64,000 nucleotides of DNA, taken from the NCBI GenBank assembly GCA_013374855.1, contig CP055308.1, positions 597,310-661,309 of the forward strand, written 5' to 3'. This document shows positions 5,144 through 55,157 of this stretch, piece by piece. This stretch comes from Candidatus Woesebacteria bacterium (GTDB lineage: Bacteria > Patescibacteriota > Microgenomatia > UBA8517). Numbering within the stretch: position 1 is the first letter of the stretch; every line of letters begins with the position of its first letter. The notes beneath the pieces are model-generated. The model did no database searches and was not told the DNA's origin. It saw only the letters and a list, made by a program, of their open reading frames with translations. A program made the translations under genes and the position numbers.

Positions 5144-5147
5144 AAAG

Positions 5148-6284
5148 GTGAGAGTTCTAATAGATGCAAGGTTATATGGTTTAGAAAATGCAGGATTAGG
5201 GAGATATGTTTCAGAATTGATTCGCTATCTTTCTTACAATTATCAAGAATTCAATTTTATTGTGTTTTTGAGGAAAAAATATTTTAAATCACTCCAACTA
5301 CCTAAGAATTGGAAAAAAGTCTGTGTTGATATAAGGCATTACTCTTTAATTGAACAGATTTATTTACCAATAATAATAAGTAAAGAAAAGCCTGATTTGG
5401 TACATTTTCCTCACTTTAATGTGCCAATATTTTATACAGGTAAATTTGTGGTTACTATTCACGATCTACTTATGCACAATTTTTCTATTCAATCAACTAC
5501 TCTTAATCCACTTTTTTACTTGGTAAAAAGGATTGCTTATAAGATAGTTTTTCGTAAGGCGATTTATTCTTCCTCTTTGATTATAACTCCATCTGTCTTT
5601 GTAAAGCAGGAAATTTTGAGGTTGTTTAAAGTTCCTGATTCTAAGATAGTTCCTGTGTATGAAGGTGTGAGTAAGGAGCTTTTTATTAATGATCAACTTT
5701 CCGTTGATGGGTTTTTTGAGAAATATGCGATAGGCGGAAATTACATACTCTATTGTGGCAATGCTTATCCTCATAAAAACCTAGATTTTGTTTTAAATGC
5801 CTTTTCTTCTTTTGATTTTAGAAAGAAACTTGAATTGGTGTTGGTTTTGCCCAGATCTATTTTTAGAGAAAGATTGGAAAATTTGGTTTCAAGATTTGGT
5901 TTGCAGAACAGAGTTAAGGTTTTGGATTTTGTTTCAGACAATGTTTTGGCTTATTTGATGAGAAAATCGATGGCTTATTTGTGTCCTTCTCTTTCTGAGG
6001 GCTTTGGCCTTCCGGGGCTTGAGGCTTTTTATTTGGGTACAATAGTTTTGGCAAGTGACATTCCTGTTTTTAGGGAGGTTTATAAAGATGTTCCTATTTA
6101 CTTTGATCCTCGGGATGAGAATAGTTTCAAAAAATCTTTAAAGAGAATTTTAGATATGAGTAAATTGGAAAGACTCAAGCTTATCAGGAGAGGAAGAAAG
6201 CTTGCACTTTCTTATTCTTGGGAGAAAATGGTAAGTGAAATTGCAAGTATTTATTCTAGGCTTGGAAATGATAAAAGATCCTGA
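5148..6284 (+). CDS. Glycosyltransferase family 4
   Basis: MRVLIDARLYGLENAGLGRYVSELIRYL at the N-terminus, with the conserved C-terminal E…FGLPGLEAF motif. Confidence 0.65.
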   Translation: MRVLIDARLYGLENAGLGRYVSELIRYLSYNYQEFNFIVFLRKKYFKSLQLPKNWKKVCVDIRHYSLIEQIYLPIIISKEKPDLVHFPHFNVPIFYTGKFVVTIHDLLMHNFSIQSTTLNPLFYLVKRIAYKIVFRKAIYSSSLIITPSVFVKQEILRLFKVPDSKIVPVYEGVSKELFINDQLSVDGFFEKYAIGGNYILYCGNAYPHKNLDFVLNAFSSFDFRKKLELVLVLPRSIFRERLENLVSRFGLQNRVKVLDFVSDNVLAYLMRKSMAYLCPSLSEGFGLPGLEAFYLGTIVLASDIPVFREVYKDVPIYFDPRDENSFKKSLKRILDMSKLERLKLIRRGRKLALSYSWEKMVSEIASIYSRLGNDKRS

Positions 6285-7398
6285 AAAATTAAGAGTTGCC
6301 ATAGTCTATGATAGAGCAATCAAATTAGGAGGTGCAGAGAGGGTTGTTTTAGCTTTAAATAGAATGTTTCCAAAGGCGCCTCTTTTCACTTCTGTTTATA
6401 ATCCTAGAAATGCAAAGTGGGCATCTTCTTTTGAGTCTGTCTATACCTCCTTTCTACAAAAAATTACTTTTGCTAAAAACTGGCATAAAGGCTTTGCTTG
6501 GTTAATGCCGATTGCTTTCGAGTCTTTTAATTTTGACAATTATGATCTTGTAATTTCTGTCACAAGTGAGGCAGCCAAGGGAATAATTACAAAACCAAGA
6601 ACTAGACACATTTGTTATATACTTACTCCGACTCGGTATTTGTGGAGCCATTATGATGTTTATTTTGAGAGCCGTTTTTTGAGTTTTTTTTCTAGACCTG
6701 TTGTTTCTTATCTTCGTTGTTGGGATAGAATAGCATCAAGAAGACCGGATAAAATTTTGTCGGTATCGATGAGGGTTAAGAATAGGGTGAAGAAATATTA
6801 TGGAATTGAATCAGATGTGGTTTACCCGCCGCTTAATTTTGGTAGTTTTGATTTTCTCAAAAATAAATCTTCTTTTGATTTATCAATGTTTAAGCCGAAG
6901 GATTATTATTTGGTGGTTTCAAGATTGGAGAAGTATAAGATGGTTGATTTGGTAATAGAGGCGTTTAGATTTCTAAAGCTACCTTTAATAATCGTGGGGG
7001 TGGGTAGTCAGATGAGGTATCTAAAAAGAGTTTCTTCAGGAGACCCTAATATAATTTTTGTGGGAAAGGTTGTTAGCGATTCCTCCATGGCTTATTACTA
7101 TAAGGATGCAAAAGCTCTGATAATGCCCCAAGAAGAGGATTTTGGCTTGGTTTCTTTGGAGGCACAAAGTTTTGGGATTCCGGTTATTTCTTATAGAGAA
7201 AGTGGGGCGGCAGAAACGATTGTTGAGGGTAAAACCGGACTATTATTTGATGAGCAAAATGTAAATTCATTGGTTGACGCGATTTATCGGTTTGATAAAA
7301 TGAAATTTACCAGTTCTTATTTTAAGCAAAACTTAGAACGTTTTTCTTTTGATAATTTTAGAAAAAAAATTTTAGAAGAGATTAATAGTTTGTTTTGA
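6268..7398 (+). CDS. Glycosyltransferase family 4
   Basis: KLRVAIVYDRAIKLGGAERVV…FGLVSLEAQSFGIPVI. The ORF-track start at 6235 is a GTG. The first ATG (MIKDPEKL) is at 6268. Confidence 0.65.
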   Translation: MIKDPEKLRVAIVYDRAIKLGGAERVVLALNRMFPKAPLFTSVYNPRNAKWASSFESVYTSFLQKITFAKNWHKGFAWLMPIAFESFNFDNYDLVISVTSEAAKGIITKPRTRHICYILTPTRYLWSHYDVYFESRFLSFFSRPVVSYLRCWDRIASRRPDKILSVSMRVKNRVKKYYGIESDVVYPPLNFGSFDFLKNKSSFDLSMFKPKDYYLVVSRLEKYKMVDLVIEAFRFLKLPLIIVGVGSQMRYLKRVSSGDPNIIFVGKVVSDSSMAYYYKDAKALIMPQEEDFGLVSLEAQSFGIPVISYRESGAAETIVEGKTGLLFDEQNVNSLVDAIYRFDKMKFTSSYFKQNLERFSFDNFRKKILEEINSLF

Positions 7399-7402
7399 GA
7401 AT

Positions 7403-8512
7403 ATGGGTTTTCAAGAACATCTTTATGTCTTGATTCTTGCAGGTGGCGGAGGAACTCGTCTTTGGCCTAAGTCTGTTGAGAAAAGACCTAAGCAGTTTCT
7501 AAGGTTGATTGGTGATAAAACTTTGTTCCAATCAACCGCGTATAGACTTAGGAGATTGGTCGGTTGGGATAGGATGTTTTGTGTAACGGTTTCAGAAAGT
7601 TATAAGAAGGAGATTTTAAAAGAGGTTCCGGAGTTTTTACCCGAGAACATAATAGTAGAGCCTCAAAGACGGGAAACTTGCCCTGCTCATGGGGTGGGAG
7701 CCTTGTATATTTATCAAAAAGATCCTCAAGCGGTGATTATTACCGAGGCGGCAGATAGAATTGTTAAGCCGAAGTCTCTTTATCTTAAGACTTTGAAAGC
7801 GGCAGCGCTTTATTCTTTTGAGACTAAAAAGCTAGTTACAGTGGGAATAAGACCTCGTTATCCTCATACTGGCTATGGTTACATCAAAAAAGGTGAAAAA
7901 CTTACTTTGGTTAATGGGGTTAAGTTTTTTAAACTTAAGAAATTTGTTGAAAAGCCATCTTTAAGACTTGCTGAGCGGTATTTTAATTCTGGTGATTATC
8001 TTTGGAATGCGGGTCAGTTTGTTTGGAGGGCAGAAGATATATTATTTGCAATAAAGAAGCATCAGCCTGATGTCTACTTTAATCTTGAAAAAATAAAAGA
8101 AGCACTTGGCACATCTAAAGAGAAGGAAGTACTTTCTTTCTATTATGAAAAAATGCCCAAGATTTCTATAGATTATGCTGTAGCAGAAAGAGAGAAAAAT
8201 TTTGCAGTAATTCAGGCAGATTTCTATTGGACTGACATTGGTGATTGGAAGGAAGTTTGGGAAGAGTCTAAAAAAGATGCTTTTGGAAACGTGATTATTG
8301 ATGGTGAAGAAGAAGGTGGAGAAGTCATAAATATAGATACTTCAGATGCTATCATTCATACAGATGGGAGGCTTGTTGCGGTTGTTGATGTTGACAATAT
8401 TGTAATTGTGGATACGCCAAAGGCTCTTTTGGTTTGCGCGAAAAGCAGAGCTCAAAATGTTAAGAAAATAGTTGAGGAACTGAAAAACAGAGGTAAAAAA
8501 GATATTCTTTGA
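7403..8512 (+). CDS. manC: Mannose-1-phosphate guanylyltransferase (NDP-sugar pyrophosphorylase)
   Basis: LILAGGGGTRLWPKS nucleotidyltransferase signature. Length and C-terminal region match GDP-mannose pyrophosphorylase type. Confidence 0.7.
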   Translation: MGFQEHLYVLILAGGGGTRLWPKSVEKRPKQFLRLIGDKTLFQSTAYRLRRLVGWDRMFCVTVSESYKKEILKEVPEFLPENIIVEPQRRETCPAHGVGALYIYQKDPQAVIITEAADRIVKPKSLYLKTLKAAALYSFETKKLVTVGIRPRYPHTGYGYIKKGEKLTLVNGVKFFKLKKFVEKPSLRLAERYFNSGDYLWNAGQFVWRAEDILFAIKKHQPDVYFNLEKIKEALGTSKEKEVLSFYYEKMPKISIDYAVAEREKNFAVIQADFYWTDIGDWKEVWEESKKDAFGNVIIDGEEEGGEVINIDTSDAIIHTDGRLVAVVDVDNIVIVDTPKALLVCAKSRAQNVKKIVEELKNRGKKDIL

Positions 8513-8549
8513 TTTTTTTATTTAAAACTGGTATAAGTTTATCTGCCCT

Positions 8550-9218
8550 ATGGAACTTTTAGACAGCAGGCAGAGAGATAGGATCTGGGAGGTTTCAAAA
8601 AGGATTATTGATATTTTTCTTGCTATTTTGCTTATAATTATTTTTTCTCCTGTTATGATTTTGACAGCTCTTGCTATTAAATTAACATCTCCCGGACCGA
8701 TTTTAGCTGATATACCAAAAAGAGTTGGGCGTAAGGGCAAGCTTTTTAGGATTTATAAGTTTCGTTCGATGTTTGTTAATGCGCACAATCTTATGAGAAC
8801 AGATCCGAAGTATAAAAAGCTTTATGAAGAATATAAAAAGTCAGGATATAAATTACACAATGATCCCCGTGTTACAAAAATAGGTAGGTTTATTAGAAGA
8901 TACTCTATTGATGAGATGCCACAATTCTTTAATGTTTTAAAAGGTGAGATGAGCATCGTGGGTCCCAGAGCCTATTATCCTGACGAGCTTGAGGAACAAC
9001 AAAAGAGATATCCCCATACTAAGGAACTAGTCAGGGAGATGATGACGGTAAAGCCGGGGATTACTGGTTATTGGCAAGTTTCTGGCAGAAGTGATGTGGA
9101 TTTTGAAAGAAGAATTGAGATGGATGCGTATTATGCCAGAAAAAAATCCTTGTGGCTTGATTTTTTGATTATTCTTAGAACTCCTTTTGTAATGCTGTCT
9201 GGGAAAGGTGCGGTCTGA
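8550..9218 (+). CDS. Polyprenyl-phosphate sugar phosphotransferase (bacterial sugar transferase, small monotopic PGT)
   Basis: One N-terminal TM, then KFRSM…DELPQ-like…PGITGYWQVSGRSD, the hallmark of the WbaP/PglC sugar-transferase family. Confidence 0.75.
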   Translation: MELLDSRQRDRIWEVSKRIIDIFLAILLIIIFSPVMILTALAIKLTSPGPILADIPKRVGRKGKLFRIYKFRSMFVNAHNLMRTDPKYKKLYEEYKKSGYKLHNDPRVTKIGRFIRRYSIDEMPQFFNVLKGEMSIVGPRAYYPDELEEQQKRYPHTKELVREMMTVKPGITGYWQVSGRSDVDFERRIEMDAYYARKKSLWLDFLIILRTPFVMLSGKGAV

Positions 9219-9261
9219 AGCTTTTCTTGATTATTTTTTCTTTAGTGGCTAAACTGAATTT

Positions 9262-11250
9262 ATGGAGCAGGATTTTTCTTTAAGTAAGATAGATTTGAGT
9301 CAGGATCAAGAAGTCAATTATTCTGATAGGGGTATTTCAAGGCAGACGGGTGAAGATTTGAGTACTAAAAGGTTTTTTAGTTTTTTTTCTGGATTTTCAG
9401 GAAGAAAAAAATTTTTTTTTGCTTTGGTTATTGTTTTTTTAGTATTTTTTTTCTATCTTGGTACATCAGTTTTTTTGATCTTTAGTAGGTCACAAACTTT
9501 TTATCGCACTTTGTCCTCTTTTAAATCTTCTTTATCATCTAAAAATTTAGGTGAAATAGAAAAAAATCTTGAAGCTAGCAAGGCTTCTTTGTTTTCTTTG
9601 AATAAAACATTTAATCTTGTTAGGTGGATGAAGTTTGTTCCCTTGGTGGGGGCTTATTTTGCGGATTTTGAAAGAGTTCTCAAGGCTTCTTCTTATTCGT
9701 TTGAAGCTGTTGATATGTCGCTTGGTGCTTTTGGGGGTTATCTTGATCTTTTGGGTTTTAATACAGGTTCTTCTTCTGGAACAACGGTTGATAGAATAAG
9801 TTTTATAACAAAAGCTTTACCGGAGGTTTTACCCAAAACTAGTGGTATTATTGAGAAATTGGAATTAGTGGAGAGTGAAATATCCCAAATTGATCCTAAA
9901 AGGTACCCTGTGAGATTAGGTAAGGTTGTAGTAAGAAAAAAAATGGAAGATGTCTTGGATGAAGCAAGATATATTCTTACTTCTCTGAAGGAATCTGAAC
10001 CTTTTATCCAACAGCTTCCTTATGTTTTGGGAATTGATTCACCCAGAAATTATTTGATTATTTTTCAGAATGATAAGGAGTTAAGGCCTACTGGTGGTTT
10101 TATAACTGCCTATTCTTTGTTAAAGATTGATAAGGCAACTTTCAATACAGTTAGGTCTGATGATATCTACAATCTTGATTCAAAGTATAAGCCAACAAAG
10201 CCAGCACCAGAACCAATTGTTAAGTACATAAAAGGACCGTATTCTATTTCACCCAAGTGGAGATTAAGGGATATGAATTGGTATGTTGGTTTTGATGATT
10301 CTATGGACTTGTTTGCAGAGGAAATAAGAAAATTGGGTTTTGACAATATAGATGGGATTGTGGCTGTTGATACTCATATTCTTGTTGATATTCTCAATAT
10401 TTTGGGTCCAATTGATGTTGCAGGTTATGGAAGATTTAGTAACGAGATTGTGCCGGAATGTAATTGCCCTCAGATAATATATGAGCTTGAGAGTTTTGCT
10501 GATGTGGAGGGTCCTATTGTTTGGGATCCTGCAGGAACTGGAAAAATTGTTTATGCCCCGCCTAATTGGGAGAATAGAAAGAAAATTATTGGACCTCTTA
10601 TGAATACAATCGCTGCTTATAGCTTAGGACAACCTGCAGAGAAAATTTCCGATTTGTTTTTGGTTTTTTTGAAAGCATGGAAGGGTAGGCATATACTTTT
10701 TTATTTTAATGATGATGAGGTTCAAAAGACGGCGAAGTCTTTTGGAATAACAGGCTCAGTTGCCGACTTTGATGGGGATTACCTTTTGATAAATGATGCC
10801 AACCTTGGTGGAAGAAAGTCTAACCTTTATGTTACACAAGAGGTTAGTCAGGAGATTAAAGTTAAAGAGAATGGAAATTTGGAGAAGACTTTAACTATTA
10901 CTTACAAAAATCCAGAAAAACATGATGGCTGGCTTAACTCGGTTCTTCCTAATTGGGTTAGAATTTATGTCCCTAAAGGAAGTAAGCTGATTTCAATCGA
11001 TGGTTTAATTGATAATGTAGAACCTTATGAAGAGTATGGTAAGACAGTTTTTGCTGGCTTTTTTGAGTTAAGACCTCAGGGAATAGTGAAAGTTGAAGTG
11101 AAGTATGAGATTCCTTTTGGGAAAGATGGTTATAGGTTGTATGTACAGAAACAGCCGGGCAAACCAGCTTTTCTTTATACTGCAAAGTTTGATAAAAGAG
11201 TTGAAGAGTTTTATCTTGATGCCGATAAAATATTGGATTTTTCTAAATGA
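9262..11250 (+). CDS. Large membrane-anchored extracytoplasmic protein (DUF4012-like), function unknown
   Basis: 662 aa with a single N-terminal TM (FALVIVFLVFFFYLGTSVFLIF) and a large hydrophilic domain. It is the last gene of the glycan cluster, and its stop overlaps recO as ATGA. Confidence 0.4.
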   Translation: MEQDFSLSKIDLSQDQEVNYSDRGISRQTGEDLSTKRFFSFFSGFSGRKKFFFALVIVFLVFFFYLGTSVFLIFSRSQTFYRTLSSFKSSLSSKNLGEIEKNLEASKASLFSLNKTFNLVRWMKFVPLVGAYFADFERVLKASSYSFEAVDMSLGAFGGYLDLLGFNTGSSSGTTVDRISFITKALPEVLPKTSGIIEKLELVESEISQIDPKRYPVRLGKVVVRKKMEDVLDEARYILTSLKESEPFIQQLPYVLGIDSPRNYLIIFQNDKELRPTGGFITAYSLLKIDKATFNTVRSDDIYNLDSKYKPTKPAPEPIVKYIKGPYSISPKWRLRDMNWYVGFDDSMDLFAEEIRKLGFDNIDGIVAVDTHILVDILNILGPIDVAGYGRFSNEIVPECNCPQIIYELESFADVEGPIVWDPAGTGKIVYAPPNWENRKKIIGPLMNTIAAYSLGQPAEKISDLFLVFLKAWKGRHILFYFNDDEVQKTAKSFGITGSVADFDGDYLLINDANLGGRKSNLYVTQEVSQEIKVKENGNLEKTLTITYKNPEKHDGWLNSVLPNWVRIYVPKGSKLISIDGLIDNVEPYEEYGKTVFAGFFELRPQGIVKVEVKYEIPFGKDGYRLYVQKQPGKPAFLYTAKFDKRVEEFYLDADKILDFSK

Positions 11251-29729: not shown

Positions 29730-30293
29730 TTAGAAGTTGTAGTTTGGTTTAGGTACTATTCCTGCTTTTTGTGGTGGCCAGTAAACTAACCATGCTTTTC
29801 CTATGATGTTTTCTCTTGGTACAAACCCCCATGCTCTTGAGTCGGAAGAATAATTTCTGTTATCACCCATGACAAAAAAGTGGTTTTCTGGGACAACAAC
29901 CTCTTTGCCATTTGGCAAGAACAATCCTCCGCTTGTGTATAAAGTGGGTGAGAGATACTCTTCTTTGAGAAGCTTTCCGTTGATATAGACTTTGCCGTTG
30001 TCTATAGAAATTTTTTCTCCAGGTAGCCCTATTATTCTTTTAATATAATCATCTTCTTCATTTATAGGTGCTTTGAATACTATGACATCTCCTCTTTGCG
30101 GCTGGTTGAATCGGTAGGTAATTTTGTCGGTAAGTAAAAATTCTCCATCAGGATAATTTGGCTGCATGGAATCCCCTTTTATTTTGTGTGGTTGGAAAAG
30201 GAGAAGGTATATAAAAAGGAAGATGGAAATTGCAAAAACAACGCTTTGTATTACATCAAAAAAAAACTTACCTAATTTGCGAAAAACTTCCAT
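29730..30293 (-). CDS. lepB: Signal peptidase I
   Basis: GDSMQPNY (catalytic Ser box), KRIIGLPGEKI, GDNRNYSSDSR. Confidence 0.8.
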   Translation of the reverse strand: MEVFRKLGKFFFDVIQSVVFAISIFLFIYLLLFQPHKIKGDSMQPNYPDGEFLLTDKITYRFNQPQRGDVIVFKAPINEEDDYIKRIIGLPGEKISIDNGKVYINGKLLKEEYLSPTLYTSGGLFLPNGKEVVVPENHFFVMGDNRNYSSDSRAWGFVPRENIIGKAWLVYWPPQKAGIVPKPNYNF

Positions 30294-30308
30294 ATCAATT
30301 CATTATAT

Positions 30309-31391
30309 TTACCTTATATTTTCTACTTCAAGGGGTAAATTGTTTTCAATAGCAATTACATCATGATAGTTGCTTTCTCTATAACCCTGTGCAGTTATTT
30401 GAATAAATTGAGCATCTTTCCAAAGCTGTTCTATGTTTTTAGCACCAACATAAGAAAAGCCTGCTCTTAGTGATCTTTCCATTCTTATTATTGTTTTCTC
30501 CAGAGTTCCTTTGTAAGGTACCATGCTTTCTACTCCCTCTATGTGTTCTGTATAGTAAGTACCAGTTTTGATTTTTTTTATGTGTTTTTCTTTTTCAGTT
30601 TTTGAGGTGGATGCATTGTACATTTTATATAATTTTCCATCTTTTTTGATTAATTTTCCTTCAGACTCTTCGCATCCTGCGAGTTGACTTCCAATTATTA
30701 CAGCTGATGCACCTGCAGCCAATCCTTTTACTATATCGCCTGAATTTTTTGTTCCGCCATCGCAAAGTATTGTCCTTTTATATTTTCTTGCTGCTTTTGC
30801 TGTATCAAGTAGCGCTGTGATTTGCGGAACTCCAACACCTGTTTCTATTCTTGTTGTACATATTGTTCCAGGACCAACACCCACTCTTACTGAGTCTGCT
30901 CCTGCTTTGAAGAGATCAACTGCAGCCTCGTATGTGGCAACAACTCCGCTTACAACATCTACCTTTTTACCAAACTTCTGCTTGATCATTTTTGTAAATT
31001 TAATTGTTTTTTCCATAGCCCCGTGAGCTACATCTATAGTGATAATGTCTACTCCTGCTTCAACTAATATTCTTGTTCTTTCTTCTTCACCTTCTTTTAT
31101 TCCAACTGCGGCCCCAACTAGAACCCCTTCTTTTTTAACCTGTTTTACCATTTCAGCTTCTTCTTCAGGTGGAATAAATCGAGGCAAAAAACCCATTCCT
31201 CCAAGTTTTCCAAGAGCTACCGCCATCCTTACTCCAGTGACATCGCTCATATTCACGCTAATCAATGGAAGCTTCAGAGTTACTCTTGGGGTTATTTTGG
31301 TAGTAAGGTCTACTTCTTGTCTGCTGTTGATTTTTGAGTGTTGTGGAACAAGAAGAACATCGTCATAAGATAAGCCTAGTCTAATTTTCAT
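30309..31391 (-). CDS. guaB: IMP dehydrogenase/GMP reductase family protein lacking the CBS subdomain
   Basis: YDDVLLVPQ…catalytic loop GVGPGTICTTR. Only 360 aa, with no CBS pair insert. Confidence 0.75.
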   Translation of the reverse strand: MKIRLGLSYDDVLLVPQHSKINSRQEVDLTTKITPRVTLKLPLISVNMSDVTGVRMAVALGKLGGMGFLPRFIPPEEEAEMVKQVKKEGVLVGAAVGIKEGEEERTRILVEAGVDIITIDVAHGAMEKTIKFTKMIKQKFGKKVDVVSGVVATYEAAVDLFKAGADSVRVGVGPGTICTTRIETGVGVPQITALLDTAKAARKYKRTILCDGGTKNSGDIVKGLAAGASAVIIGSQLAGCEESEGKLIKKDGKLYKMYNASTSKTEKEKHIKKIKTGTYYTEHIEGVESMVPYKGTLEKTIIRMERSLRAGFSYVGAKNIEQLWKDAQFIQITAQGYRESNYHDVIAIENNLPLEVENIR

Positions 31392-31487
31392 TTTTGCACA
31401 AAATTTAATTTAAAACTTAATTTATCACTTGTCAATTCTAGAAATAGTTTGCTTTTAAATGGTAAAATAATCATTTAAGTAGTTATT

Positions 31488-31563
31488 GACCGCTTAGCTC
31501 AGTTGGCAGAGCGCATCGTTCACATCGATGAGGTCGTAGGTTCAAGTCCTACAGCGGTCACCA
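31488..31563 (+). tRNA. tRNA-Val (anticodon CAC), CCA encoded
   Basis: Cloverleaf: acceptor GACCGCT/AGCGGTC, D-arm GCTC…GAGC, anticodon stem CATCG/CGATG with loop TTCACAT, T-arm GTAGG TTCAAGT CCTAC, discriminator A, then CCA. Confidence 0.9.
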
Positions 31564-31592
31564 TGATCCGTCATTGTTGGAGATGTTGATTT

Positions 31593-32270
31593 ATGAAAAG
31601 AGACGCAAAGATTTTTTTTATTTTTTATTTTGTTTTTATTCTTCTTCTGATTTTTTCTGTTTTTTTCAATCTTCGGTTTGAACTTGCCTATTTTAATGGC
31701 TCGCTTGATAAGTTGTTTCTTTTAAACGGGATTCAACGTGTTGCGGGGGTTTTGGCTTTGTTTTTGCTTTTTGTGCAGACTATTGTTGGTGCTTATCGTG
31801 GCAAAATTTCACAGAAATTAGGCGGTTGGGTAATGAACTTCCATATTTGGCAGGGAAGGGTTATTTATTTTTTGGTTTTGGTACATACTTTTTCTTTTCT
31901 TCTCTTCAATTTCGCTGCACAGAAGGGATTTAATCCGTTTTATGTTTTTGTCGATTTTTGTCTTCTTTGCCCAACAAAAATGGAGCTTTATTATTCTTTT
32001 GGCAGGATTGGTTTTTGGCTTCTTAATTTGACAATTGCTGCTGCTCTTTTGAGGAGCAATTCTTGGTGGAGAAAGAACTGGCGTTATATTCATATCCTAA
32101 ATTACCCATTGTTTTTTCTGATTGCAGCTCATGCTTTCTTTGTCGGCTCTGATTTTTCTTTGGAATCTGGCTTTTTAGGTCAATTAAATATAACTTTTGC
32201 ATTTGTAATTTTTCTTATTGCCCTTCAAAAAATAATTTCTTGGTTTAGGGGAAGTTTTAGGTGGAGGTAG
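31593..32270 (+). CDS. Ferric-reductase-like transmembrane di-heme protein (MsrQ/FRD-domain-like)
   Basis: Six-helix membrane protein with two His pairs in adjacent helices: H-x13-H (FHIWQGRVIYFLVLVH) and H-x12-H (IHILNYPLFFLIAAH). This is the bis-heme ligand pattern of the ferric reductase/NOX transmembrane domain. Confidence 0.5.
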   Translation: MKRDAKIFFIFYFVFILLLIFSVFFNLRFELAYFNGSLDKLFLLNGIQRVAGVLALFLLFVQTIVGAYRGKISQKLGGWVMNFHIWQGRVIYFLVLVHTFSFLLFNFAAQKGFNPFYVFVDFCLLCPTKMELYYSFGRIGFWLLNLTIAAALLRSNSWWRKNWRYIHILNYPLFFLIAAHAFFVGSDFSLESGFLGQLNITFAFVIFLIALQKIISWFRGSFRWR

Positions 32271-49651: not shown

Positions 49652-49732
49652 AAAGGGTTTTTTGGAAATACAGAGGGCTTGCGTGCTAACATCAAGATGT
49701 TGCCTTTTCTTATTTGATTACAAAGGGTCTTG

Positions 49733-49804
49733 AGCAGCGGACCGGATTCGAACCGGCGACCTTCTCCTTGGGAAGGAGACATTCTACCACTGAACTACCG
49801 CTGC
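49733..49804 (-). tRNA. tRNA-Gly (anticodon CCC), CCA not encoded
   Basis: Reverse complement: acceptor GCAGCGG/CCGCTGC, D-arm GTTC…GAAT, anticodon stem TCTCC/GGAGA with loop TTCCCAA, T-arm GCCGG TTCGAAT CCGGT, discriminator T. Confidence 0.85.
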
Positions 49805-50542: not shown

Positions 50543-50616
50543 GGGGTTGTAGCTCAGTCGGCTAGAGCGTCCGCCTGTCACGCGGAAGGTCGCGGGTTCG
50601 AGTCCCGTCAGCCCCG
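50543..50616 (+). tRNA. tRNA-Asp (anticodon GTC), CCA not encoded
   Basis: Acceptor GGGGTTG/CAGCCCC, D-arm GCTC AGTCGGCTA GAGC, anticodon stem TCCGC/GCGGA with loop CTGTCAC, T-arm GCGGG TTCGAGT CCCGT, discriminator G. Confidence 0.9.
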
Positions 50617-50693
50617 CCTCAAAAGAGATTTTCTTTCTCGTTTGGATTCCTCTTCATTAAATTCTTTTTAAGGGGTGGTAGAATTAAACATAT

Positions 50694-51503
50694 ATGTCTT
50701 TGCAAAAGAAAATTTTATATTTTGGCATTTTTCCGGTTTTTCTTTTATTTTTCCTTTTCTTGATTGGTAATTCTTTCAATTCAGGCGATTCTATGCCTTA
50801 TGGTGAATTTAATAAGGCTAGAGATGGTGCTTTTATGGTTACCAAGCAACCTGAGGTTAAAAGTGAACAGGCAGAAGGGGTTTCTTTTTCTTCAGATTCA
50901 ACTGATGAACTTGTAAAGGTAGTAAAAGTTATAGATGGGGATACAATTAAAATTGAAACAGGTGAGGTGGTGAGGCTTATAGGAATTGATGCTCCAGAAA
51001 CTCTTCATCCGTCAAAACCTGTTGCTTGTTTTGGCAAAGAGTCAAGTTTAAAGGCAAGAGAGATTATGGAGGGAGAGTTTGTAGAGTTGGAGAAGGATGT
51101 TTCGGATAGAGATAAATATGGAAGGTTGCTTCGGTATGTTTGGAAAAAAGAAGCACTTATAAATGAAATTTTGGTTCGTGAGGGATATGCTATGGTTTCC
51201 ACTTATCCGCCTAATATTAAGTATCAGAATAGGCTTTTGGAGGCGCAAAAATTAGCAAGGGAAGAAAATAAGGGTTTGTGGGCAGAGTGTAACGGTAAGG
51301 AAGATAGCACAGAAACCGAAGAACCATCTGTCACAAAAAGGCAATCAACTCATTTTGGCACTGTTTCTTATATATGTGATTGTTCAAAAACTTGTAATAA
51401 AATAACCTCGTGCGAGGAGGCTCAATACCAACTTGAAGCTTGTGGATGCAAAGCTCGTGATGGTGATGGGGATGGAATAGCCTGTGATTCATTGTGTCAG
51501 TAG
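50694..51503 (+). CDS. Membrane-anchored/secreted thermonuclease (SNase-like) with C-terminal Excalibur Ca2+-binding domain
   Basis: VVKVIDGDTIKIETGEVVRLIGIDAPE…GRLLRYVW…EGYA (staphylococcal-nuclease fold). C-terminal Cys-rich tail with DGDGDGIACD (Excalibur DxDxDGxxC motif). Confidence 0.75.
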   Translation: MSLQKKILYFGIFPVFLLFFLFLIGNSFNSGDSMPYGEFNKARDGAFMVTKQPEVKSEQAEGVSFSSDSTDELVKVVKVIDGDTIKIETGEVVRLIGIDAPETLHPSKPVACFGKESSLKAREIMEGEFVELEKDVSDRDKYGRLLRYVWKKEALINEILVREGYAMVSTYPPNIKYQNRLLEAQKLAREENKGLWAECNGKEDSTETEEPSVTKRQSTHFGTVSYICDCSKTCNKITSCEEAQYQLEACGCKARDGDGDGIACDSLCQ

Positions 51504-51650
51504 ATTTTTTTTGAGTATAATGATTTCGTAGAATCGTTTAGTTTCAGGCTTACAAGTTTTTTAAGTTATCAGGGATTAATGTGGCATATTTGAATTTCTT
51601 TTTTGAAAGTTAGTCACATTGAGATGTTCTTTTTGTTAAAGCGGAAGTCA

Positions 51651-53129
51651 ATGAGAAACAGAAAAGTTATTGTTGTTGGAGCTGGAATTTCTGGTCTTGC
51701 TACGGCTGCTCTCCTTGCAAAAGATGGTTATAATGTTACTGTATTGGAGAAGAATTCTTTTGTAGGGGGGTAGGGCCAGTTTTTTCCAAGAAGCGGGGTA
51801 CTTTTTTGATAAAGGTCCATCTTGGTATATGATGCCTGAAGTTTTTGAAGACTTCTTTGGTATTTTTGGTAAAAAGACTTCTGATTATTATGATTTGGAT
51901 AGATTAAGAATTCACCACAAGGTTTTTTTGGATAAAGGGAAGTCTTACTTGGTAAGTGATAATCTGAAGGAGAATCTGAAAATGTTTGAAAGTGTTGAGA
52001 AAGGAGCATCTTATAATTTAAGAAGGTATCTTGGGGAATGTGAGTTTGTTTATAGGGCAGCCATGAAGGATTTGGTGATGCTTGATTATTCTGATTTTTT
52101 ACAGATTGTAAATCCAAAGGTTTTCTACTATTTTTTCCGTTTCAGACTTCTTAGTAATTTGCATTCTTATGTAAGTGGGTATTTCAAGAATAAGGATTTA
52201 CAGAAAATTCTTGAATTTACAACGGTTTTTCTGGGGGGATCTCCTTATAATACACCCGCCTTTTATTCTTTGGTTTCTCATGCTGATTTTAATTTGGGTG
52301 TTTTTTATCCTAAGGGAGGAATGTATCAGGTTGTTAAAGCATTGGTTTCTTTGTGTAAGGAATATGGTGTGAATATAATTACTGATTGTGAAGTTAAAAA
52401 GTTAGTGTGGTTGATGGTTTAATAAAAGAAATTAAAGCAGGTGGCGAGATTTTCTTTTTTGATATTTTTGTTTGTTCTGCTGACTATAGAAATTTTGAGG
52501 TTAATCTTTTGCCAAAGGAAAGTCAAACTTATCCTGAGGAGTATTGGGAGAAGAGGACACTTTCTCCTGGAGCCTTTATTATATATTTGGGTATAGGTAG
52601 AAAGTTAAAGAATGTAGAACATCATAATCTTTATTTTAACGAAAGTTGGGAAGAACATTTTGATGATGTTTTTAAACAAAAGAAATGGCCAGAAAAGCCG
52701 TCCTATTATGTTCATGTACCTTCCAAAACAGATCCAAGTGTTGCGCCTTCTGGTGGTGAAACCTTGATGTTTTTAGTGCCTGTTGCCGCTGGTCTTTTTG
52801 ATAATTCTGAAATTAGAGAATCTTTTGCTGAAAAAATAATCTCACATTTTGAAAGTTTAATAGGTCAAAAGATTTATCCGTTTATAAAGGTCAAGAGAAT
52901 ATACGCCCATAAAGATTTTATTAATGAATATAACTCTTTTAAAGGCTCCGCTTTTGGATTAGCACACACTTTGACTCAAACAGCATTTTTCAGGCCGAAA
53001 AATAAAAGTAGAAAATTAAAAAATCTTTATTATGTGGGTCAGTATACAAATCCGGGCATAGGTGTGCCTATTTGCTTATTATCTGCTCAAATTACCAGGA
53101 ATTTGATAAAAAGAGAGTATGGTAGATGA
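51651..53129 (+). pseudogene. crtI: Phytoene desaturase-like (CrtI-family FAD oxidoreductase) gene interrupted by two frameshifts
   Basis: N-terminus [40 protein letters not shown], then TAG at 51771 inside a G6 run (51765-51770). The reading frame resumes in +1 ([24 protein letters not shown]…) through 52422, then shifts again near 52405-52410 into the frame of ORF 52407-53129 (…SADY…YYVGQYTNPGIGVP). Confidence 0.7.
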
Positions 53130-53943
53130 TGTATATAAAAGGAAAACTAAAGATCGATCAACGACTTTTTACTATGCATCACTCTTTTTCCCAAGAGAAA
53201 GAAGGAATGATGTTTTTAAGCTTTATGCATTTTTACGAACAGCTGATGACATAGTTGATGAGAATAAAGATAAAAATTTATTTTTAAGTTTCAAGAAGGA
53301 AGTATACGATGGCATTGAAAATGAAACTTTTCCTTCAAAAGATCCTTTTATAGGTGGCTTTCTGGAAGTTTACAGGAAATATCGTTTCGAAAGGGAATAT
53401 ATAGATAGTTTTTTTGCTTCGCTTGAATATGATTTTAAAAAACCACTGCAGATAAAAGATCAAGCGGAATTGCAAAAGTATGTCTATGGAGTTGCTGGTG
53501 TGGTTGGTTTGATGATGGCAAAAATTTTGGGGTTGGAGCCTTCTTACTATAACGCTGCAAGGAAATTTGGTGAGCTTATGCAGATTGTGAATATAATAAG
53601 AGACATTAAATTTGATTATGATATGTACAGAATTTATATACCAAAGTCAGATATAGAAAGGTTTGGCTTATCTGATATTTCTGATTATAAAGAAAACAAA
53701 AAAAGGAAGGGTTTTGAAGAACTTTTAAGGTTTGAGATAGGTAATGTTTTAGAAGGAATAAATAGTTTATCTGGTGATATAGAGAAGATACCTAAGTCTT
53801 ATCGCCGACCAATAGAAATCTCAAGAGATGTTTACAAGAGTATAGCTAATGAAATTTATAAAAGCCCTACTTTAGTTTGGAGAAAAAAAATTCGACTTGA
53901 TAAACTTAGATTTTTTTTGATTATTTTAAAAAATTTATTTTAG
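53119..53943 (+). CDS. crtB: Phytoene/squalene synthase family (CrtB-like)
   Basis: YYASLFFPRERRNDVFKLYAFLRTADDIVDE (first Asp-rich motif), GELMQIVNIIRDIKFDYDMYRIYIP (second motif). Confidence 0.75.
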   Translation: MVDDVYKRKTKDRSTTFYYASLFFPRERRNDVFKLYAFLRTADDIVDENKDKNLFLSFKKEVYDGIENETFPSKDPFIGGFLEVYRKYRFEREYIDSFFASLEYDFKKPLQIKDQAELQKYVYGVAGVVGLMMAKILGLEPSYYNAARKFGELMQIVNIIRDIKFDYDMYRIYIPKSDIERFGLSDISDYKENKKRKGFEELLRFEIGNVLEGINSLSGDIEKIPKSYRRPIEISRDVYKSIANEIYKSPTLVWRKKIRLDKLRFFLIILKNLF

Positions 53944-53946
53944 ATT

Positions 53947-54651
53947 GTGATATCTGAGTATTTAGTTTTTAATTTAATTATTATTTTAGGGCCTGTTTTA
54001 GGGAGATTTTTCTATTCCAGATCAATTTTGCCAAAGACAAAGCAGATTATTTTTTCCATTTCTTTGGCTTCTTTATTTTTTGTTGTTTGGGATATTTTGG
54101 TTACAGATTACTTCTGGAGTTTTAATTATAAATACGTATTAGGTTATAAATTTGTAAATATTCCGGTTGAGGAGCTGTTATTTTTCTTTACAGTTCCTTA
54201 TGCCTGTCTTTTTTTATATGTTAATTTTAAGAATATGCTTAGGGAAAAAATTAGAATAACAATCTCTCCTTTTTATATTACATTTTTTTTAGTATTTTCT
54301 TTATTTTTATCTTTGTTATCCTTTTTTATAGGTAAATACTATACCTTTTCAGTGCTTTTGGTTTGGTCTTTAGTTTTGTTTTTTGACAAGTTTTTACTGA
54401 AGACTTGTGTTTCATTAAATTTGGTTTATTGGCTTTTTATTTTTATTGTCTTTTTTCTTACTTTATTTTTTAACTATTATCTAACAAGTCGTCCTGTGGT
54501 TTTGTACAACAAGGATTTTAATTTGAATCTTAATCTTTTAACAATTCCGGTTGAGGATTTTTTATATTCTTTTTCCTTGATTAGTTTAGTTGTTATTGTC
54601 TATGAGTTTTTACAGAGAGATTATTTGGGTGATTTTCATAAAAGCAAGTAG
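53947..54651 (+). CDS. Fused lycopene-cyclase-domain protein (CrtYcd-type, two tandem cyclase half-domains)
   Basis: 234-aa seven-helix membrane protein with a duplicated motif: NIPVEELLFFFTVPYACLFLY and LTIPVEDFLYSFSLISLVVIVYEF (the hPhEE motif of heterodimeric/fused lycopene cyclases). Confidence 0.6.
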   Translation: MISEYLVFNLIIILGPVLGRFFYSRSILPKTKQIIFSISLASLFFVVWDILVTDYFWSFNYKYVLGYKFVNIPVEELLFFFTVPYACLFLYVNFKNMLREKIRITISPFYITFFLVFSLFLSLLSFFIGKYYTFSVLLVWSLVLFFDKFLLKTCVSLNLVYWLFIFIVFFLTLFFNYYLTSRPVVLYNKDFNLNLNLLTIPVEDFLYSFSLISLVVIVYEFLQRDYLGDFHKSK

Positions 54652-54653
54652 AT

Positions 54654-55157
54654 ATGAAAAGGAAAGTTGTAGTTAATGATAAGATGCAAAAAAATTATGT
54701 TTATTACCTTACAGAAAAACCAGGGGAAAATTTTGATCCTGAATTTAAACCTGATCTTACACCCAAAGAGATGCTTGAGCTCGGCGTATTTGGTGGTAGG
54801 TATATGACCGATTGCCAAAATGAGTTTCCTAGAGACTGGTTTTCTAAAGCGAAATTGTGTTCTGAAAAGCACGATCCTAATCTTAATTTTTTTGGAGTTA
54901 ATGCCAGTCAACCTTTGTCTATTTGGCGCGAGAGAGGTTGGATTCATCCGGATGATCCACGGGGTTGGTTTCAGTGGTATTGTCGTTACTATATGGGCAG
55001 AAGACACCCGGATGATAAAAGACAGATTAGACGTTGGAAAGCCATGAAGAGGCATGTAGCACAGATTAAGAAGCATTGTAGACCTTTTGATTTGAATTGT
55101 AGGAGGAAACAAAGACAAGCTCTACTTCATTGGGCATATGATTCTAGGAAGATTTAG
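54654..55157 (+). CDS. Conserved hypothetical Cys/Trp/Arg-rich basic protein
   Basis: 167 aa: …GVFGGRYMTDC…GWIHPDDPRGWFQWYCRYYMGRRHPDDKRQIRRWKA…KKHCRPFDLNCRRK. No confident family assignment from sequence alone. Confidence 0.4.
   Translation: MKRKVVVNDKMQKNYVYYLTEKPGENFDPEFKPDLTPKEMLELGVFGGRYMTDCQNEFPRDWFSKAKLCSEKHDPNLNFFGVNASQPLSIWRERGWIHPDDPRGWFQWYCRYYMGRRHPDDKRQIRRWKAMKRHVAQIKKHCRPFDLNCRRKQRQALLHWAYDSRKI

What the first reader, a model, noticed from the sequence alone, without database searches (positions are those of the whole stretch)
51651..54651. Carotenoid biosynthesis operon (crtI-crtB-fused lycopene cyclase) in a CPR-like genome, with the desaturase broken
Three consecutive genes encode a CrtI-family FAD desaturase, a phytoene/squalene synthase with both Asp-rich motifs, and a two-repeat lycopene-cyclase-domain membrane protein. 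This is the core of a C40 (or C50) carotenoid pathway and is unexpected for a minimal, likely symbiotic genome. No GGPP synthase (crtE) is in the window. The synthase and cyclase are intact, while the desaturase carries two frameshifts. This suggests either recent decay of a horizontally acquired pigment operon or local sequence errors. Either way the operon is notable.
Basis: partly seen in the sequence, partly recalled or inferred. Interest (0 to 1): 0.7.

Follow-up and report, generated by a model that had tools for sequence, protein, structure and literature searches.

The report
Broken carotenoid operon in deep-aquifer CPR bacterium
A tiny-genome bacterium from a dark aquifer 2.8 km underground carries an ordinary three-gene carotenoid pigment operon whose first enzyme has been knocked out by two single-base frameshifts, most likely a recent loss of a pathway it no longer needs.

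Summary
Window 51653-54651 encodes a CrtI-family desaturase, a squalene/phytoene-synthase-family CrtB and a two-repeat lycopene cyclase. They are tightly packed on the + strand.

The desaturase is split into three frames. One extra G lies in a G6 run (51765-51770). One base is missing somewhere in 52398-52419.

An Illumina-only public assembly of run SRR6186653 is identical over 50712-54899 and has both shifts. That run sampled a 2.8-km-deep Siberian aquifer. Nanopore or polishing error and chimerism at the operon borders are therefore unlikely.

The other roughly 50 long ORFs in the window look full-length. The repaired CrtI keeps 75 of 76 highly conserved positions, and crtB and the cyclase look undamaged. 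The inactivation is therefore recent.

The genome is a Woesebacteria-like member of Microgenomatia (CPR/Patescibacteria). Related CPR contigs carry the same operon intact, sometimes with a polyprenyl synthase inserted. Composition and codon usage match the rest of the window. The operon therefore looks inherited within this clade, not newly imported, and it is not rare in CPR.

Verdict: a real, recently broken, otherwise ordinary carotenoid operon.

Side finding: the next gene (54654-55157) belongs to a huge, highly conserved protein family with no annotation and no fold match in the PDB.

The parts
51494..51521 (+). Promoter-like site (GTGTCA, 16-nt spacer, TATAAT) about 130 nt upstream of the crtI start
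   Evidence: This is a consensus match only. It scores 10 of 12 matches and is the only such site in the 150-nt gap between the nuclease gene and crtI.
51653..53129 (+). crtI pseudogene: a CrtI-family (CrtID-like) FAD-dependent phytoene desaturase of 492 codons once repaired
   Evidence: TIGR02734 scores 445 bits (cutoff 238). NF058655 CrtID scores 628-629 bits (cutoff 640). The protein is 72% identical to the nearest intact homolog and keeps 75 of 76 columns that are at least 95% conserved.
51653..51773 (+). crtI piece 1 (frame 0): 40 codons holding the GxGxxG FAD-binding beta-alpha-beta unit, ending at TAG 51771-51773
   Evidence: NAD_binding_8 2.9e-11, DAO 3.3e-10.
51765..51770 (+). Frameshift 1: a G6 run holding one G too many. 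Frame 0 closes at 51773 and frame +1 opens at 51766.
   Evidence: With G5 the sequence reads FVGGRASFF, matching the conserved xLGGRASFF without a gap. The window has only 6 G6 runs.
51766..52422 (+). crtI piece 2 (frame +1). Its first start codon is ATG 51829, so the near-invariant RASFF..FDKGPSWY stretch cannot be made without frameshifting.
   Evidence: The alignment shows R41, F52, D53, G55, P56, S57, W58 and Y59 as invariant.
52398..52419 (+). Frameshift 2: one base missing somewhere in this 22-nt stretch where the two frames overlap
   Evidence: There are two equally long repairs. A5 to A6 gives EVKKVSVVDG. GTG-TGG to GTG-GTG-G gives EVKKLVVVDG. The second fits the family consensus better and resembles GTG GTG GTA in L003.
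52407..53129 (+). crtI piece 3 (frame 0): the C-terminal 240 codons
   Evidence: Amino_oxidase 7.1e-06. It is called as a separate protein in the NCBI and Logan records.
53119..53943 (+). crtB: squalene/phytoene-synthase-family enzyme of 274 aa. Its start overlaps the crtI end by 11 nt. Asp-rich motifs lie at 53245-53259 and 53602-53616.
   Evidence: (PF00494, 176 bits). It is intact, and its departures from the general consensus are shared with CPR relatives.
53947..54651 (+). Fused two-repeat lycopene cyclase (CrtYc/Yd-type membrane protein, 234 aa, GTG start 3 nt after the crtB stop). PVEE lies at 54163-54174 and PVED at 54547-54558.
   Evidence: PF18916, two stretches; TIGR03462, 78 bits against cutoff 39. 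It keeps 27 of 27 columns conserved at 90% or more.
54654..55157 (+). 167-aa ORF starting 2 nt after the cyclase stop. It belongs to a widespread uncharacterised family. It is probably co-transcribed, but there is no evidence that it is a carotenoid gene.

Best explanation
This is a normal bacterial C40 carotenoid operon, crtI-crtB-crtYcd.

How the pathway would run:
- CrtB would condense two GGPP into phytoene.
- CrtI would desaturate phytoene to lycopene.
- The fused CrtYc/Yd-type membrane cyclase would close the end rings to give gamma- and beta-carotene.

The host is a Woesebacteria-like (Microgenomatia, CPR) bacterium living in a dark, methane-rich aquifer tapped by a 2.8-km borehole.

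In this lineage crtI has been inactivated by two real 1-bp indels, +1 G at 51765-51770 and -1 within 52398-52419. Translation stops after 40 codons. The conserved FDxGPSWY segment cannot be made. The pathway therefore halts at colourless phytoene at best, and probably also loses translational coupling into crtB.

The rest of the operon has not yet decayed, so the loss is recent. It fits relaxed selection on a photoprotective or antioxidant pigment in permanent darkness.

Shown: the gene identities, the exact lesions, their presence in an independent Illumina-only assembly, the lack of other damage, and intact homologous operons in related CPR contigs.

Inferred: that the lesions are fixed in the population, the C40 beta-cyclic product, the reason for the loss, and the source of GGPP.
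For: Gene identities and motifs.

Lesions mapped to a single G6 run and a 22-nt stretch.

The lesions are in the DNA reads, not introduced by assembly:
- Logan contig L001 from SRR6186653 is identical to window 50712-54899, apart from a 1-nt T-run difference at its very tip. Gene calling on it gives the same 49 + 197 + 240 aa fragments.
- SRR6186653 is HiSeq2500 2x250 data from borehole 5P.
- The closed Patescibacteria genomes from that sample had 44-249x coverage and were Pilon-polished.

The damage is confined to crtI:
- crtI makes up about 2.5% of the coding bases yet holds both indels.
- The other roughly 50 long ORFs look full-length.

The loss is recent:
- Repaired CrtI keeps 75 of 76 columns conserved at 95% or more, and 148 of 152 conserved at 80% or more. 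The homolog mean for the latter is 142.
- CrtB keeps 88 of 105 columns fixed in four CPR relatives. Each relative scores 88 of 97-106 in leave-one-out tests.
- The cyclase keeps 27 of 27.

The operon is native to the clade:
- L003 and L006 have crtI-crtB-cyclase-167aa.
- L004 and L005 have the same order with a polyprenyl synthase between crtB and the cyclase.
- A relative with a 779,720-bp contig is 72% identical in IleRS and 64% in CrtI.
- Codon-usage r for the crt genes is 0.75-0.87, against a background of 0.81 +/- 0.11. GC3 is 0.24-0.31, against 0.28 +/- 0.04.
Against: - No reads could be inspected. Both assemblies derive from the same Illumina library, so a library-level artefact or a mixed population (a majority broken allele with a minority intact one) is not excluded.
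- Two indels with no other damage is also what an artefact would look like.
- The statistics on conserved columns cannot tell 'very recent pseudogene' from 'functional gene'.
- The link between darkness and the loss is an inference. The sample is borehole outflow water, and carotenoids also have roles that do not involve light.
- The window shows no GGPP synthase. The pathway could therefore already have been non-functional, or it could depend on a gene elsewhere.
- The assignment of the window to one named genome of the paper is unconfirmed. The source contig is 802,554 bp. The paper's table lists 807,231, 827,260, 850,353 and 906,006 bp, and those sizes disagree with the deposits.
Confidence: 0.7

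Rival explanations
1. Consensus error: the gene is intact in the organism, and both indels come from sequencing, assembly or polishing.
For: Both lesions are +/-1 nt. One lies in a G6 homopolymer and the other may lie in an A5 run. The published genomes were scaffolded with MinION reads. The repaired protein and the two downstream genes look perfectly functional. The Logan contig differs from the window by one T in a T-run at its tip, so homopolymer length calls are not infallible.
Against: The Logan contig is built from the Illumina run alone and carries both shifts. Coverage of the candidate genomes was 44-249x with Pilon polishing. The window has about 890 A/T runs of 5 or more and 46 G/C runs of 5 or more, yet no other gene looks shifted. 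Two random errors falling in the same 2.5% of the coding sequence has a chance of roughly 0.025. The better-fitting repair of site 2 is not in a homopolymer.
Confidence: 0.12
2. Recoding: full-length CrtI is still made at a low level. A +1 ribosomal slip of tRNA-Gly on GGG_GGG_UAG is followed by a -1 slip of tRNA-Lys on A_AAG (52397-52401), or the same result comes from transcriptional slippage.
For: Either slip would give exactly the conserved peptide (VGGRA, and EVKK-VSVVDG). Site 1 has a stop codon in the A site right after a G run that resembles a Shine-Dalgarno sequence, as in prfB (my own knowledge). A_AAG is a known -1 slippery tetramer in E. coli (my own knowledge). A tRNA-Gly(CCC) gene lies at 49732-49804. 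crtB and the cyclase are kept intact.
Against: All 120 listed homologs are single uninterrupted proteins, and the four relatives inspected use non-slippery codons at both sites. The 80 nt downstream of each site fold no better than shuffled sequence (z = 0.15 and -0.62). The P-site codon before A_AAG is preceded by U, so this is not a full heptamer. The runs are too short for efficient RNA-polymerase slippage. Two inefficient events in series would leave very little product. Any homopolymer indel can be 'rescued' on paper in this way.
Confidence: 0.05
3. Not a C40 carotenoid pathway: the genes make squalene or hopanoid precursors (HpnCDE-like), C30 diapocarotenoids, or C50 carotenoids such as bacterioruberin.
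For: The synthase's best NCBIfam hit is HpnD, ahead of the CrtB models. Some homologs of the desaturase are labelled by JGI as haloarchaeal 1-hydroxy-2-isopentenylcarotenoid 3,4-desaturase. Patescibacteria from Lake Baikal were reported to carry lyeJ, crtD and cruF. The best equivalog model is the bifunctional CrtID, so end products desaturated beyond lycopene are possible.
Against: HpnD scores 137 bits against a cutoff of 279. There is only one SQS_PSY gene, and HpnE scores 43 bits against 283, while crtI_fam scores 445 against 238. A two-repeat lycopene-cyclase-domain protein directly follows. C30 and squalene routes have no use for it. No UbiA-type elongase, CruF or second desaturase was seen among the window ORFs. 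Relatives insert a polyprenyl synthase into the operon, as expected if the operon supplies its own prenyl diphosphate substrate; its chain length was not determined.
Confidence: 0.05
4. A recently imported foreign operon, or a chimeric join in the assembly, now decaying because it never worked in this host.
For: The flanks differ from those in relatives. Here they are a nuclease upstream and PolX downstream. In L004 and L006 DnaG-sigma70 lies downstream, and L003 and L006 have SmpB upstream. The genome has a second, 90%-identical copy of the 167-aa gene elsewhere, so the block may have moved. The cyclase has a GC of only 0.257.
Against: Codon usage and GC3 of all crt genes lie inside the window's range. 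GC skew continues unbroken. An independent contig spans both borders. The nearest homologs sit on contigs with CPR-typical genes, and divergence is similar to that of IleRS. The low GC of the cyclase fits a membrane protein rich in Phe, Leu and Ile.
Confidence: 0.06

Closest known systems
Bacterial and archaeal crtI-crtB-crtYc/Yd carotenoid clusters. The cyclase type is split in Brevibacterium linens and Myxococcus and fused in Sulfolobus, Halobacterium and the fungal CrtYB/CarRA proteins (from my own knowledge).
   Same: Same three enzyme families and the same logic of synthase, four-step FAD desaturase and small membrane cyclase. The cyclase has two internal repeats, each with the PxE(E/D) motif.
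   Different: The host is a CPR bacterium with a genome of about 0.8 Mb. No crtE lies next to the operon. The desaturase is frameshifted twice. No hydroxylase or ketolase genes are present.
NCBIfam NF058655 CrtID, the bifunctional phytoene desaturase/3,4-desaturase
   Same: This is the best-scoring equivalog model, aligned end to end (model positions 1-477 of 478). It scores 628-629 bits for the repaired protein. The intact relative P0010 passes at 649.
   Different: The score is just under the curated cutoff of 640, and three of four close relatives also fall short at 624-631. 3,4-Desaturase activity is therefore not established, and the gene here is broken.
Intact homologous operons in related CPR contigs: L003 (GCA_900174565.1), L004/L005 (JGI 3300022554 and ENA) and L006 (JGI 3300045136)
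   Same: Same gene order, including the 167-aa gene. Identities are 64-69% for CrtI, 54-56% for CrtB and 45-52% for the cyclase.
   Different: Their crtI is uninterrupted (494-498 aa). L004/L005 carry a polyprenyl synthase inside the operon. The flanking genes differ.
Carotenoid (bacterioruberin) genes reported in Lake Baikal Patescibacteria (PMC9948471)
   Same: A published case of carotenoid biosynthesis genes in CPR genomes. The 'crtD' reported there belongs to the same broad CrtI/CrtD family.
   Different: That report concerns lyeJ, crtD and cruF, which were not clustered. Here there is a compact crtI-crtB-cyclase operon with no elongase or hydratase.
HpnC/HpnD/HpnE squalene synthesis
   Same: It also uses an SQS_PSY-family enzyme and an amine-oxidase-family flavoenzyme. 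HpnD is the synthase's top NCBIfam hit.
   Different: All Hpn scores are far below their cutoffs. There is only one SQS_PSY gene. A lycopene cyclase is present.

Membership tests
CrtI phytoene desaturase family (TIGR02734) | Whole-protein score above the curated cutoff | tested here: met
   444.6-444.9 bits against a cutoff of 238.1, for either repair of the reading frame.
CrtI phytoene desaturase family (TIGR02734) | N-terminal FAD-binding GxGxxG fold and the conserved FDxGPSW segment | tested here: met
   [10 protein letters not shown] lies in piece 1. FDKGPSWY is present in frame +1 and invariant across 30 aligned sequences.
CrtI phytoene desaturase family (TIGR02734) | One uninterrupted reading frame that can yield an active enzyme | tested here: not met
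   There are two frameshifts. Frame 0 stops at 51771-51773. No start codon in frame +1 precedes 51829.
CrtID bifunctional desaturase (NF058655, equivalog) | Score at or above the curated equivalog cutoff of 640 bits | tested here: not met
   627.9-628.9 bits. Relatives P0001, P0002 and P0005 score 624-631, and P0010 scores 649.
Squalene/phytoene synthase family (PF00494) | Domain match above the gathering score, with both Asp-rich DxxxD motifs | tested here: met
   176.2 bits against a cutoff of 26, covering model positions 2-262 of 263. DDIVD lies at residues 43-47 and DIKFD at 162-166, read directly from the translation.
15-cis-phytoene synthase CrtB (NCBIfam equivalogs NF042419, NF045686, NF045921) | Score above the equivalog cutoff | tested here: not met
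   69-83 bits against cutoffs of 480-550. The phytoene-synthase role is inferred from the neighbouring genes only.
Lycopene cyclase domain proteins (PF18916, TIGR03462; CrtYc/Yd type) | Two cyclase-domain repeats in one membrane protein, each with the PxE(E/D) motif | tested here: met
   PF18916 matches in 2 stretches with E = 1.5e-21. TIGR03462 scores 78.4 bits against a cutoff of 39.4. PVEE lies at residue 73 and PVED at residue 201. The two halves align with each other, and the protein has several hydrophobic segments.
Lycopene cyclase domain proteins (PF18916, TIGR03462; CrtYc/Yd type) | Beta-cyclase activity on lycopene, as opposed to C50 epsilon- or gamma-cyclase activity | not testable with these tools
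   No elongase gene is nearby. That favours C40, but the product can only be shown by expression and HPLC.
HpnCDE squalene pathway | Two SQS_PSY paralogs (HpnC and HpnD) plus HpnE, each above cutoff | tested here: not met
   HpnD scores 137 against 279, HpnC 77 against 250, and HpnE 43 against 283. Only one SQS_PSY gene is present.
Programmed ribosomal frameshift (prfB-type +1, dnaX-type -1) | The shift site is conserved in homologs | tested here: not met
   All 120 listed homologs are single ORFs. Four relatives use GGA GGA AGG or GGC GGT AGA at site 1 and non-slippery codons at site 2.
Programmed ribosomal frameshift (prfB-type +1, dnaX-type -1) | A stimulatory downstream RNA structure | tested here: not met
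   Minimum free energy z-scores are 0.15 and -0.62 against shuffled sequence.

The most novel reading that the evidence does not exclude
The 167-aa gene that immediately follows the cyclase (54654-55157) may be a functional partner of carotenoid or photo-oxidative-stress lipid chemistry.

What supports this:
- The protein has a confidently predicted fold (pLDDT 95) with no counterpart in the PDB.
- It has no annotation in any library searched.
- It follows the cyclase in every intact relative examined in this clade.
- Elsewhere it recurs next to DUF2177, DUF1295/ICMT-like, lipocalin, TspO and YbgA-like genes.
- The family also occurs in giant viruses.

If the link is real, this window would be an entry point to a very large family of unknown function.
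Probability: 0.1. Interest if true: 0.6.

Novelty: new member of a known kind. Interest (0 to 1): 0.3.

Why it matters
This is a small, clean example of reductive evolution caught early. A CPR bacterium in a permanently dark, deep aquifer keeps a complete pigment operon, but its first committed desaturase has just been lost.

It also corrects an assumption. Compact crtI-crtB-cyclase operons, some carrying their own polyprenyl synthase, are fairly common in Microgenomatia and other CPR lineages. Pigment synthesis should therefore not be treated as foreign to these minimal genomes.

For annotation, the three 'hypothetical' or partial desaturase ORFs in the public record should be merged into one pseudogene.

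The wider lead is the uncharacterised 167-aa family next door.

Tried and rejected
Dead ends:
- Looking up the source contig through the exact 167-aa proteins found nothing on record.
It returned only homologs of 54% identity or less, from Spirochaetes, archaea, Bacteroidota and a few Patescibacteria. It therefore gave neither the source genome nor a fair taxonomic census.
- A literature search for 'CrtID' found nothing relevant.
- 'Candidate phyla radiation' plus 'lycopene cyclase' gave one unrelated paper.
- The first AlphaFold run of the 167-aa protein, on a shallow alignment, was poor (pLDDT 59).
- The afdb50 fold library was unavailable.

Ideas tested and rejected:
- A split but functional CrtI. 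Frame +1 has no start codon before 51829, so invariant residues 41-59 would be lost.
- The 167-aa gene as a general carotenoid operon member. Only 1 of 80 metagenomic loci carrying it has a cyclase next to it. Its same-strand neighbours are diverse.
- An apparent second copy in L006 (482-985) is an unrelated protein that happens to be the same length.
- Ch65 (CP047901) as the source genome. Its GC content is 44.8%, against about 35% here.
- Rhodopsin, blh, elongase, hydroxylase or polyprenyl synthase in the window. None was found.


Full report
**Observation**

Between 51.6 and 54.7 kb the + strand carries five consecutive ORFs.

Three of them are pieces of one FAD-dependent desaturase.
- Piece 1 (51603/51653-51773) matches NAD_binding_8 and DAO.
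- Pieces 2 (51829-52422) and 3 (52407-53129) match Amino_oxidase.
- Three-frame translation and the raw sequence show that frame 0 is open up to TAG at 51771-51773, while frame +1 is open from 51766. The first shift must therefore lie inside the G6 run 51765-51770.
- With five Gs the text reads FVGGRASFF, which matches the family's conserved xLGGRASFF without a gap.
- Frame +1 closes at 52420-52422 and frame 0 re-opens at 52398. One base is therefore missing within 52398-52419.
- Two repairs give the same length: A5 to A6 (EVKKVSVVDG), or restoring a G in GTG-TGG-TT (EVKKLVVVDG).
- The second repair fits the consensus better and resembles GTG GTG GTA in a relative. This lesion is therefore not clearly a homopolymer event.

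The repaired 492-aa protein scores 445 bits on TIGR02734 crtI_fam (cutoff 238). It scores 628-629 bits on the equivalog NF058655 'CrtID', just under that model's cutoff of 640.

The next gene (53119-53943) overlaps the crtI end by 11 nt. It is a squalene/phytoene-synthase-family protein (PF00494, 176 bits) with DDIVD and DIKFD motifs.

The third gene (53947-54651) has two lycopene-cyclase-domain repeats (PF18916; TIGR03462 at 78 bits against a cutoff of 39). Each repeat has a PVE(E/D) motif, and the two halves align with each other.

A promoter-like site lies at 51494-51521.

No polyprenyl synthase is in the window. By reading the ORFs and by Pfam scans I found no rhodopsin, elongase, hydroxylase or cleavage enzyme either.

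**Where the sequence comes from**

The exact CrtB protein is on record in a Logan contig assembled from run SRR6186653. That contig is identical to window 50712-54899 apart from one T in a T-run at its very tip. Gene calling on it gives the same three desaturase fragments.

SRR6186653 is the Illumina HiSeq2500 2x250 data set of artesian water from the 2.8-km-deep borehole 5P in Western Siberia (PMC5701477, PMC7509429).
- The study closed four Patescibacteria (class Microgenomatia) genomes at 44-249x coverage. It used MinION reads only for scaffolding, followed by Pilon polishing.
- The window's proteins sit on an NCBI contig of 802,554 bp.
I can therefore only say the window is probably one of the three Woesebacteraceae genomes. 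It is not Ch65, which has 44.8% GC.
- The window's IleRS is closest to proteins named Woesebacteria, Microgenomates and Patescibacteria.
- The window also holds a dcw cluster, gatCAB and many glycosyltransferases at about 35% GC.

The 'CPR-like' label is correct.

**Are the frameshifts real?**

Several points argue against an artefact.
- The Illumina-only assembly shows both shifts.
- The window has about 890 A/T runs of 5 or more and 46 G/C runs of 5 or more. The other roughly 50 long ORFs nevertheless look like complete proteins.
- crtI holds about 2.5% of the coding bases. Two random errors would rarely fall together there.
- No intact near-identical CrtI exists anywhere in the protein collection. 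The best hit is 72% identical.

Nothing else is wrong with the operon.
- Repaired CrtI keeps 75 of 76 columns conserved at 95% or more, and 148 of 152 conserved at 80% or more. The homolog mean for the latter is 142.
- The cyclase keeps 27 of 27 conserved columns.
- CrtB departs from the general consensus at positions where its CPR relatives depart too (19 of 22). It keeps as many clade-fixed columns as each relative does.

I conclude that the lesions are most likely real and evolutionarily recent. Only read pile-ups can settle whether they are fixed, polymorphic or artefactual.

**Rescue by recoding?**

A +1 slip on GGG_GGG_UAG and a -1 slip on A_AAG would each restore the conserved peptide. 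This is true of any homopolymer indel.
- The relatives are uninterrupted and use non-slippery codons at both sites.
- The sequence downstream of each site folds no better than shuffles.
- Two inefficient events in series would leave little enzyme.

A split enzyme is excluded. Frame +1 has no start codon before 51829, so invariant residues 41-59 could not be translated.

**Is the operon foreign or unusual?**

The nearest CrtI homologs (64-72% identity) lie on contigs with CPR-typical genes and have the same order.
- L003 and L006 have crtI-crtB-cyclase-167aa.
- L004 and L005 have a polyprenyl synthase between crtB and the cyclase.
- A relative with a 779,720-bp contig is 72% identical in IleRS and 64% in CrtI.
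- Among the listed homologs, the names given by sources include Dojkabacteria, Roizmanbacteria, Patescibacteria group and Woesearchaeota.
- GC3 and codon usage of the crt genes are inside the window's range. GC skew is unbroken, and the independent contig spans both borders.

There is therefore no sign of recent import or chimerism, and such operons are not rare in CPR. The flanks do differ from those of relatives, so the block may have moved within the genome.

Other relatives have lost parts of the operon.
- L002 keeps crtI, crtB and the polyprenyl synthase, but only two remnants of the cyclase.
- A sibling genome from the same aquifer (CP055307.1, L087) has 167aa-DnaG-sigma70, the arrangement seen downstream of the operon in L004 and L006, with SmpB and NUDIX genes upstream. 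It has DUF2177-DUF1295 where the crt genes would be.

Published mentions of carotenoid genes in Patescibacteria exist but are few. Searches for more found little.

**Mechanism**

The intact pathway is inferred from what these families are known to do. CrtB makes phytoene from GGPP. CrtI desaturates it to lycopene, possibly further if it is CrtID-like. The fused CrtYc/Yd cyclase forms beta rings.

In this genome, translation of crtI ends after 40 codons. No coloured carotenoid can be made, and translational coupling into the overlapping crtB start is probably lost.

The HpnCDE reading is rejected. All Hpn scores are far below their cutoffs, there is a single SQS_PSY gene, and a cyclase is present.

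C50 products are unlikely because no elongase was found. They cannot be excluded without chemistry.

**Side finding**

The 167-aa ORF that starts 2 nt after the cyclase stop belongs to a very large, very conserved family.
- More than 8000 hits are at least 74% identical.
- The family forms 2480 clusters at 50% identity.
- IMG/VR holds 254 confirmed matches, many in giant-virus MAGs.
- It has no Pfam, NCBIfam, PHROG or PDB sequence match.
- With a diverse alignment AlphaFold gives pLDDT 95.4 and pTM 0.90.
- It follows the cyclase in this clade. Only 1 of 80 metagenomic loci carrying it has a cyclase beside it.
- Its same-strand neighbours are varied. DUF1295/ICMT-like and lipocalin each occur 4 times in 87, NmrA-like 3 times and YbgA-like 2 times.

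It is therefore not a general carotenoid gene. The recurring company of membrane-lipid and light-stress-type genes is a lead, not a result.

**Verdict**

The operon is a real but ordinary CPR carotenoid operon. Its desaturase was recently and most likely genuinely inactivated, which fits life in permanent darkness. It is a new member of a known kind and of modest interest.

Noticed in passing
window 54654-55157 (+): A 167-aa ORF starts 2 nt after the cyclase stop. It belongs to a huge, 70-90% conserved family found in CPR bacteria, some records labelled archaeon, and giant-virus MAGs. No library annotates it. The AlphaFold model is confident (pLDDT 95.4) but has no fold match in the PDB. A second copy, 90% identical, lies elsewhere on the same 802,554-bp contig.
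   Followed up: partly
L176, L182, L195, L209, L210, L087, L088 (neighbours of the 167-aa gene): Outside this clade the 167-aa gene repeatedly sits next to DUF2177, DUF1295/Steroid_dh/ICMT-like, lipocalin (Blc-type), NmrA-like, TspO and 2-thiouracil-desulfurase/DUF1722 (YbgA-like) genes. From memory, this set resembles photo-oxidative-stress gene neighbourhoods. No partner dominates (at most 4 of 87).
   Followed up: partly
window 1-64000: G exceeds C on the + strand in 62 of 64 one-kb windows (skew up to +0.43), and the cumulative skew rises without a turn. The only negative windows (30001-32000) coincide with minus-strand genes. A paper on another Microgenomates genome from the same aquifer describes whole-chromosome strand disparity (PMC7143001).
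   Followed up: no
L002 13369-13625: In the contig with the closest intact CrtI (72% identity), crtI, crtB and a polyprenyl synthase are intact. The cyclase is reduced to two short remnants matching residues 4-50 and 187-223. A different gene of the same operon is therefore damaged in a relative.
   Followed up: partly
L087 (CP055307.1, same aquifer) 4840-9534: A sibling Microgenomatia genome has DUF2177-DUF1295-167aa-DnaG-sigma70. L004 and L006 have crtI-crtB-(polyprenyl synthase)-cyclase-167aa, with DnaG-sigma70 a further one to seven genes downstream. The crt genes are absent at that position in this deep-aquifer relative.
   Followed up: no
L003 9576-9965: A TspO/MBR gene lies directly upstream of crtI in one relative, and another lies near the 167-aa gene in L088. 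From memory, TspO (CrtK) sits in the Rhodobacter carotenoid cluster.
   Followed up: no
window 50728 against L001 position 17: The only difference between the window and the Illumina-only Logan contig is one T in a T-run (T5 against T4), 17 nt from the contig tip and inside the nuclease gene 50694-51503. It is probably a contig-end artefact.
   Followed up: no
window 49732-49804 (-) and 50543-50618 (+): tRNA-Gly(CCC) and tRNA-Asp(GTC) flank a LysM protein gene just upstream of the operon region. The secreted SNase-type nuclease with an Excalibur domain (50694-51503) is the immediate upstream neighbour of crtI.
   Followed up: no
CP055307 is listed at 850,353 bp but CP055307.1 is 901,682 bp. 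Ch65 is listed at 906,006 bp but described as 801,504 bp in its own paper. The 802,554-bp source contig could not be tied to one accession.
   Followed up: partly
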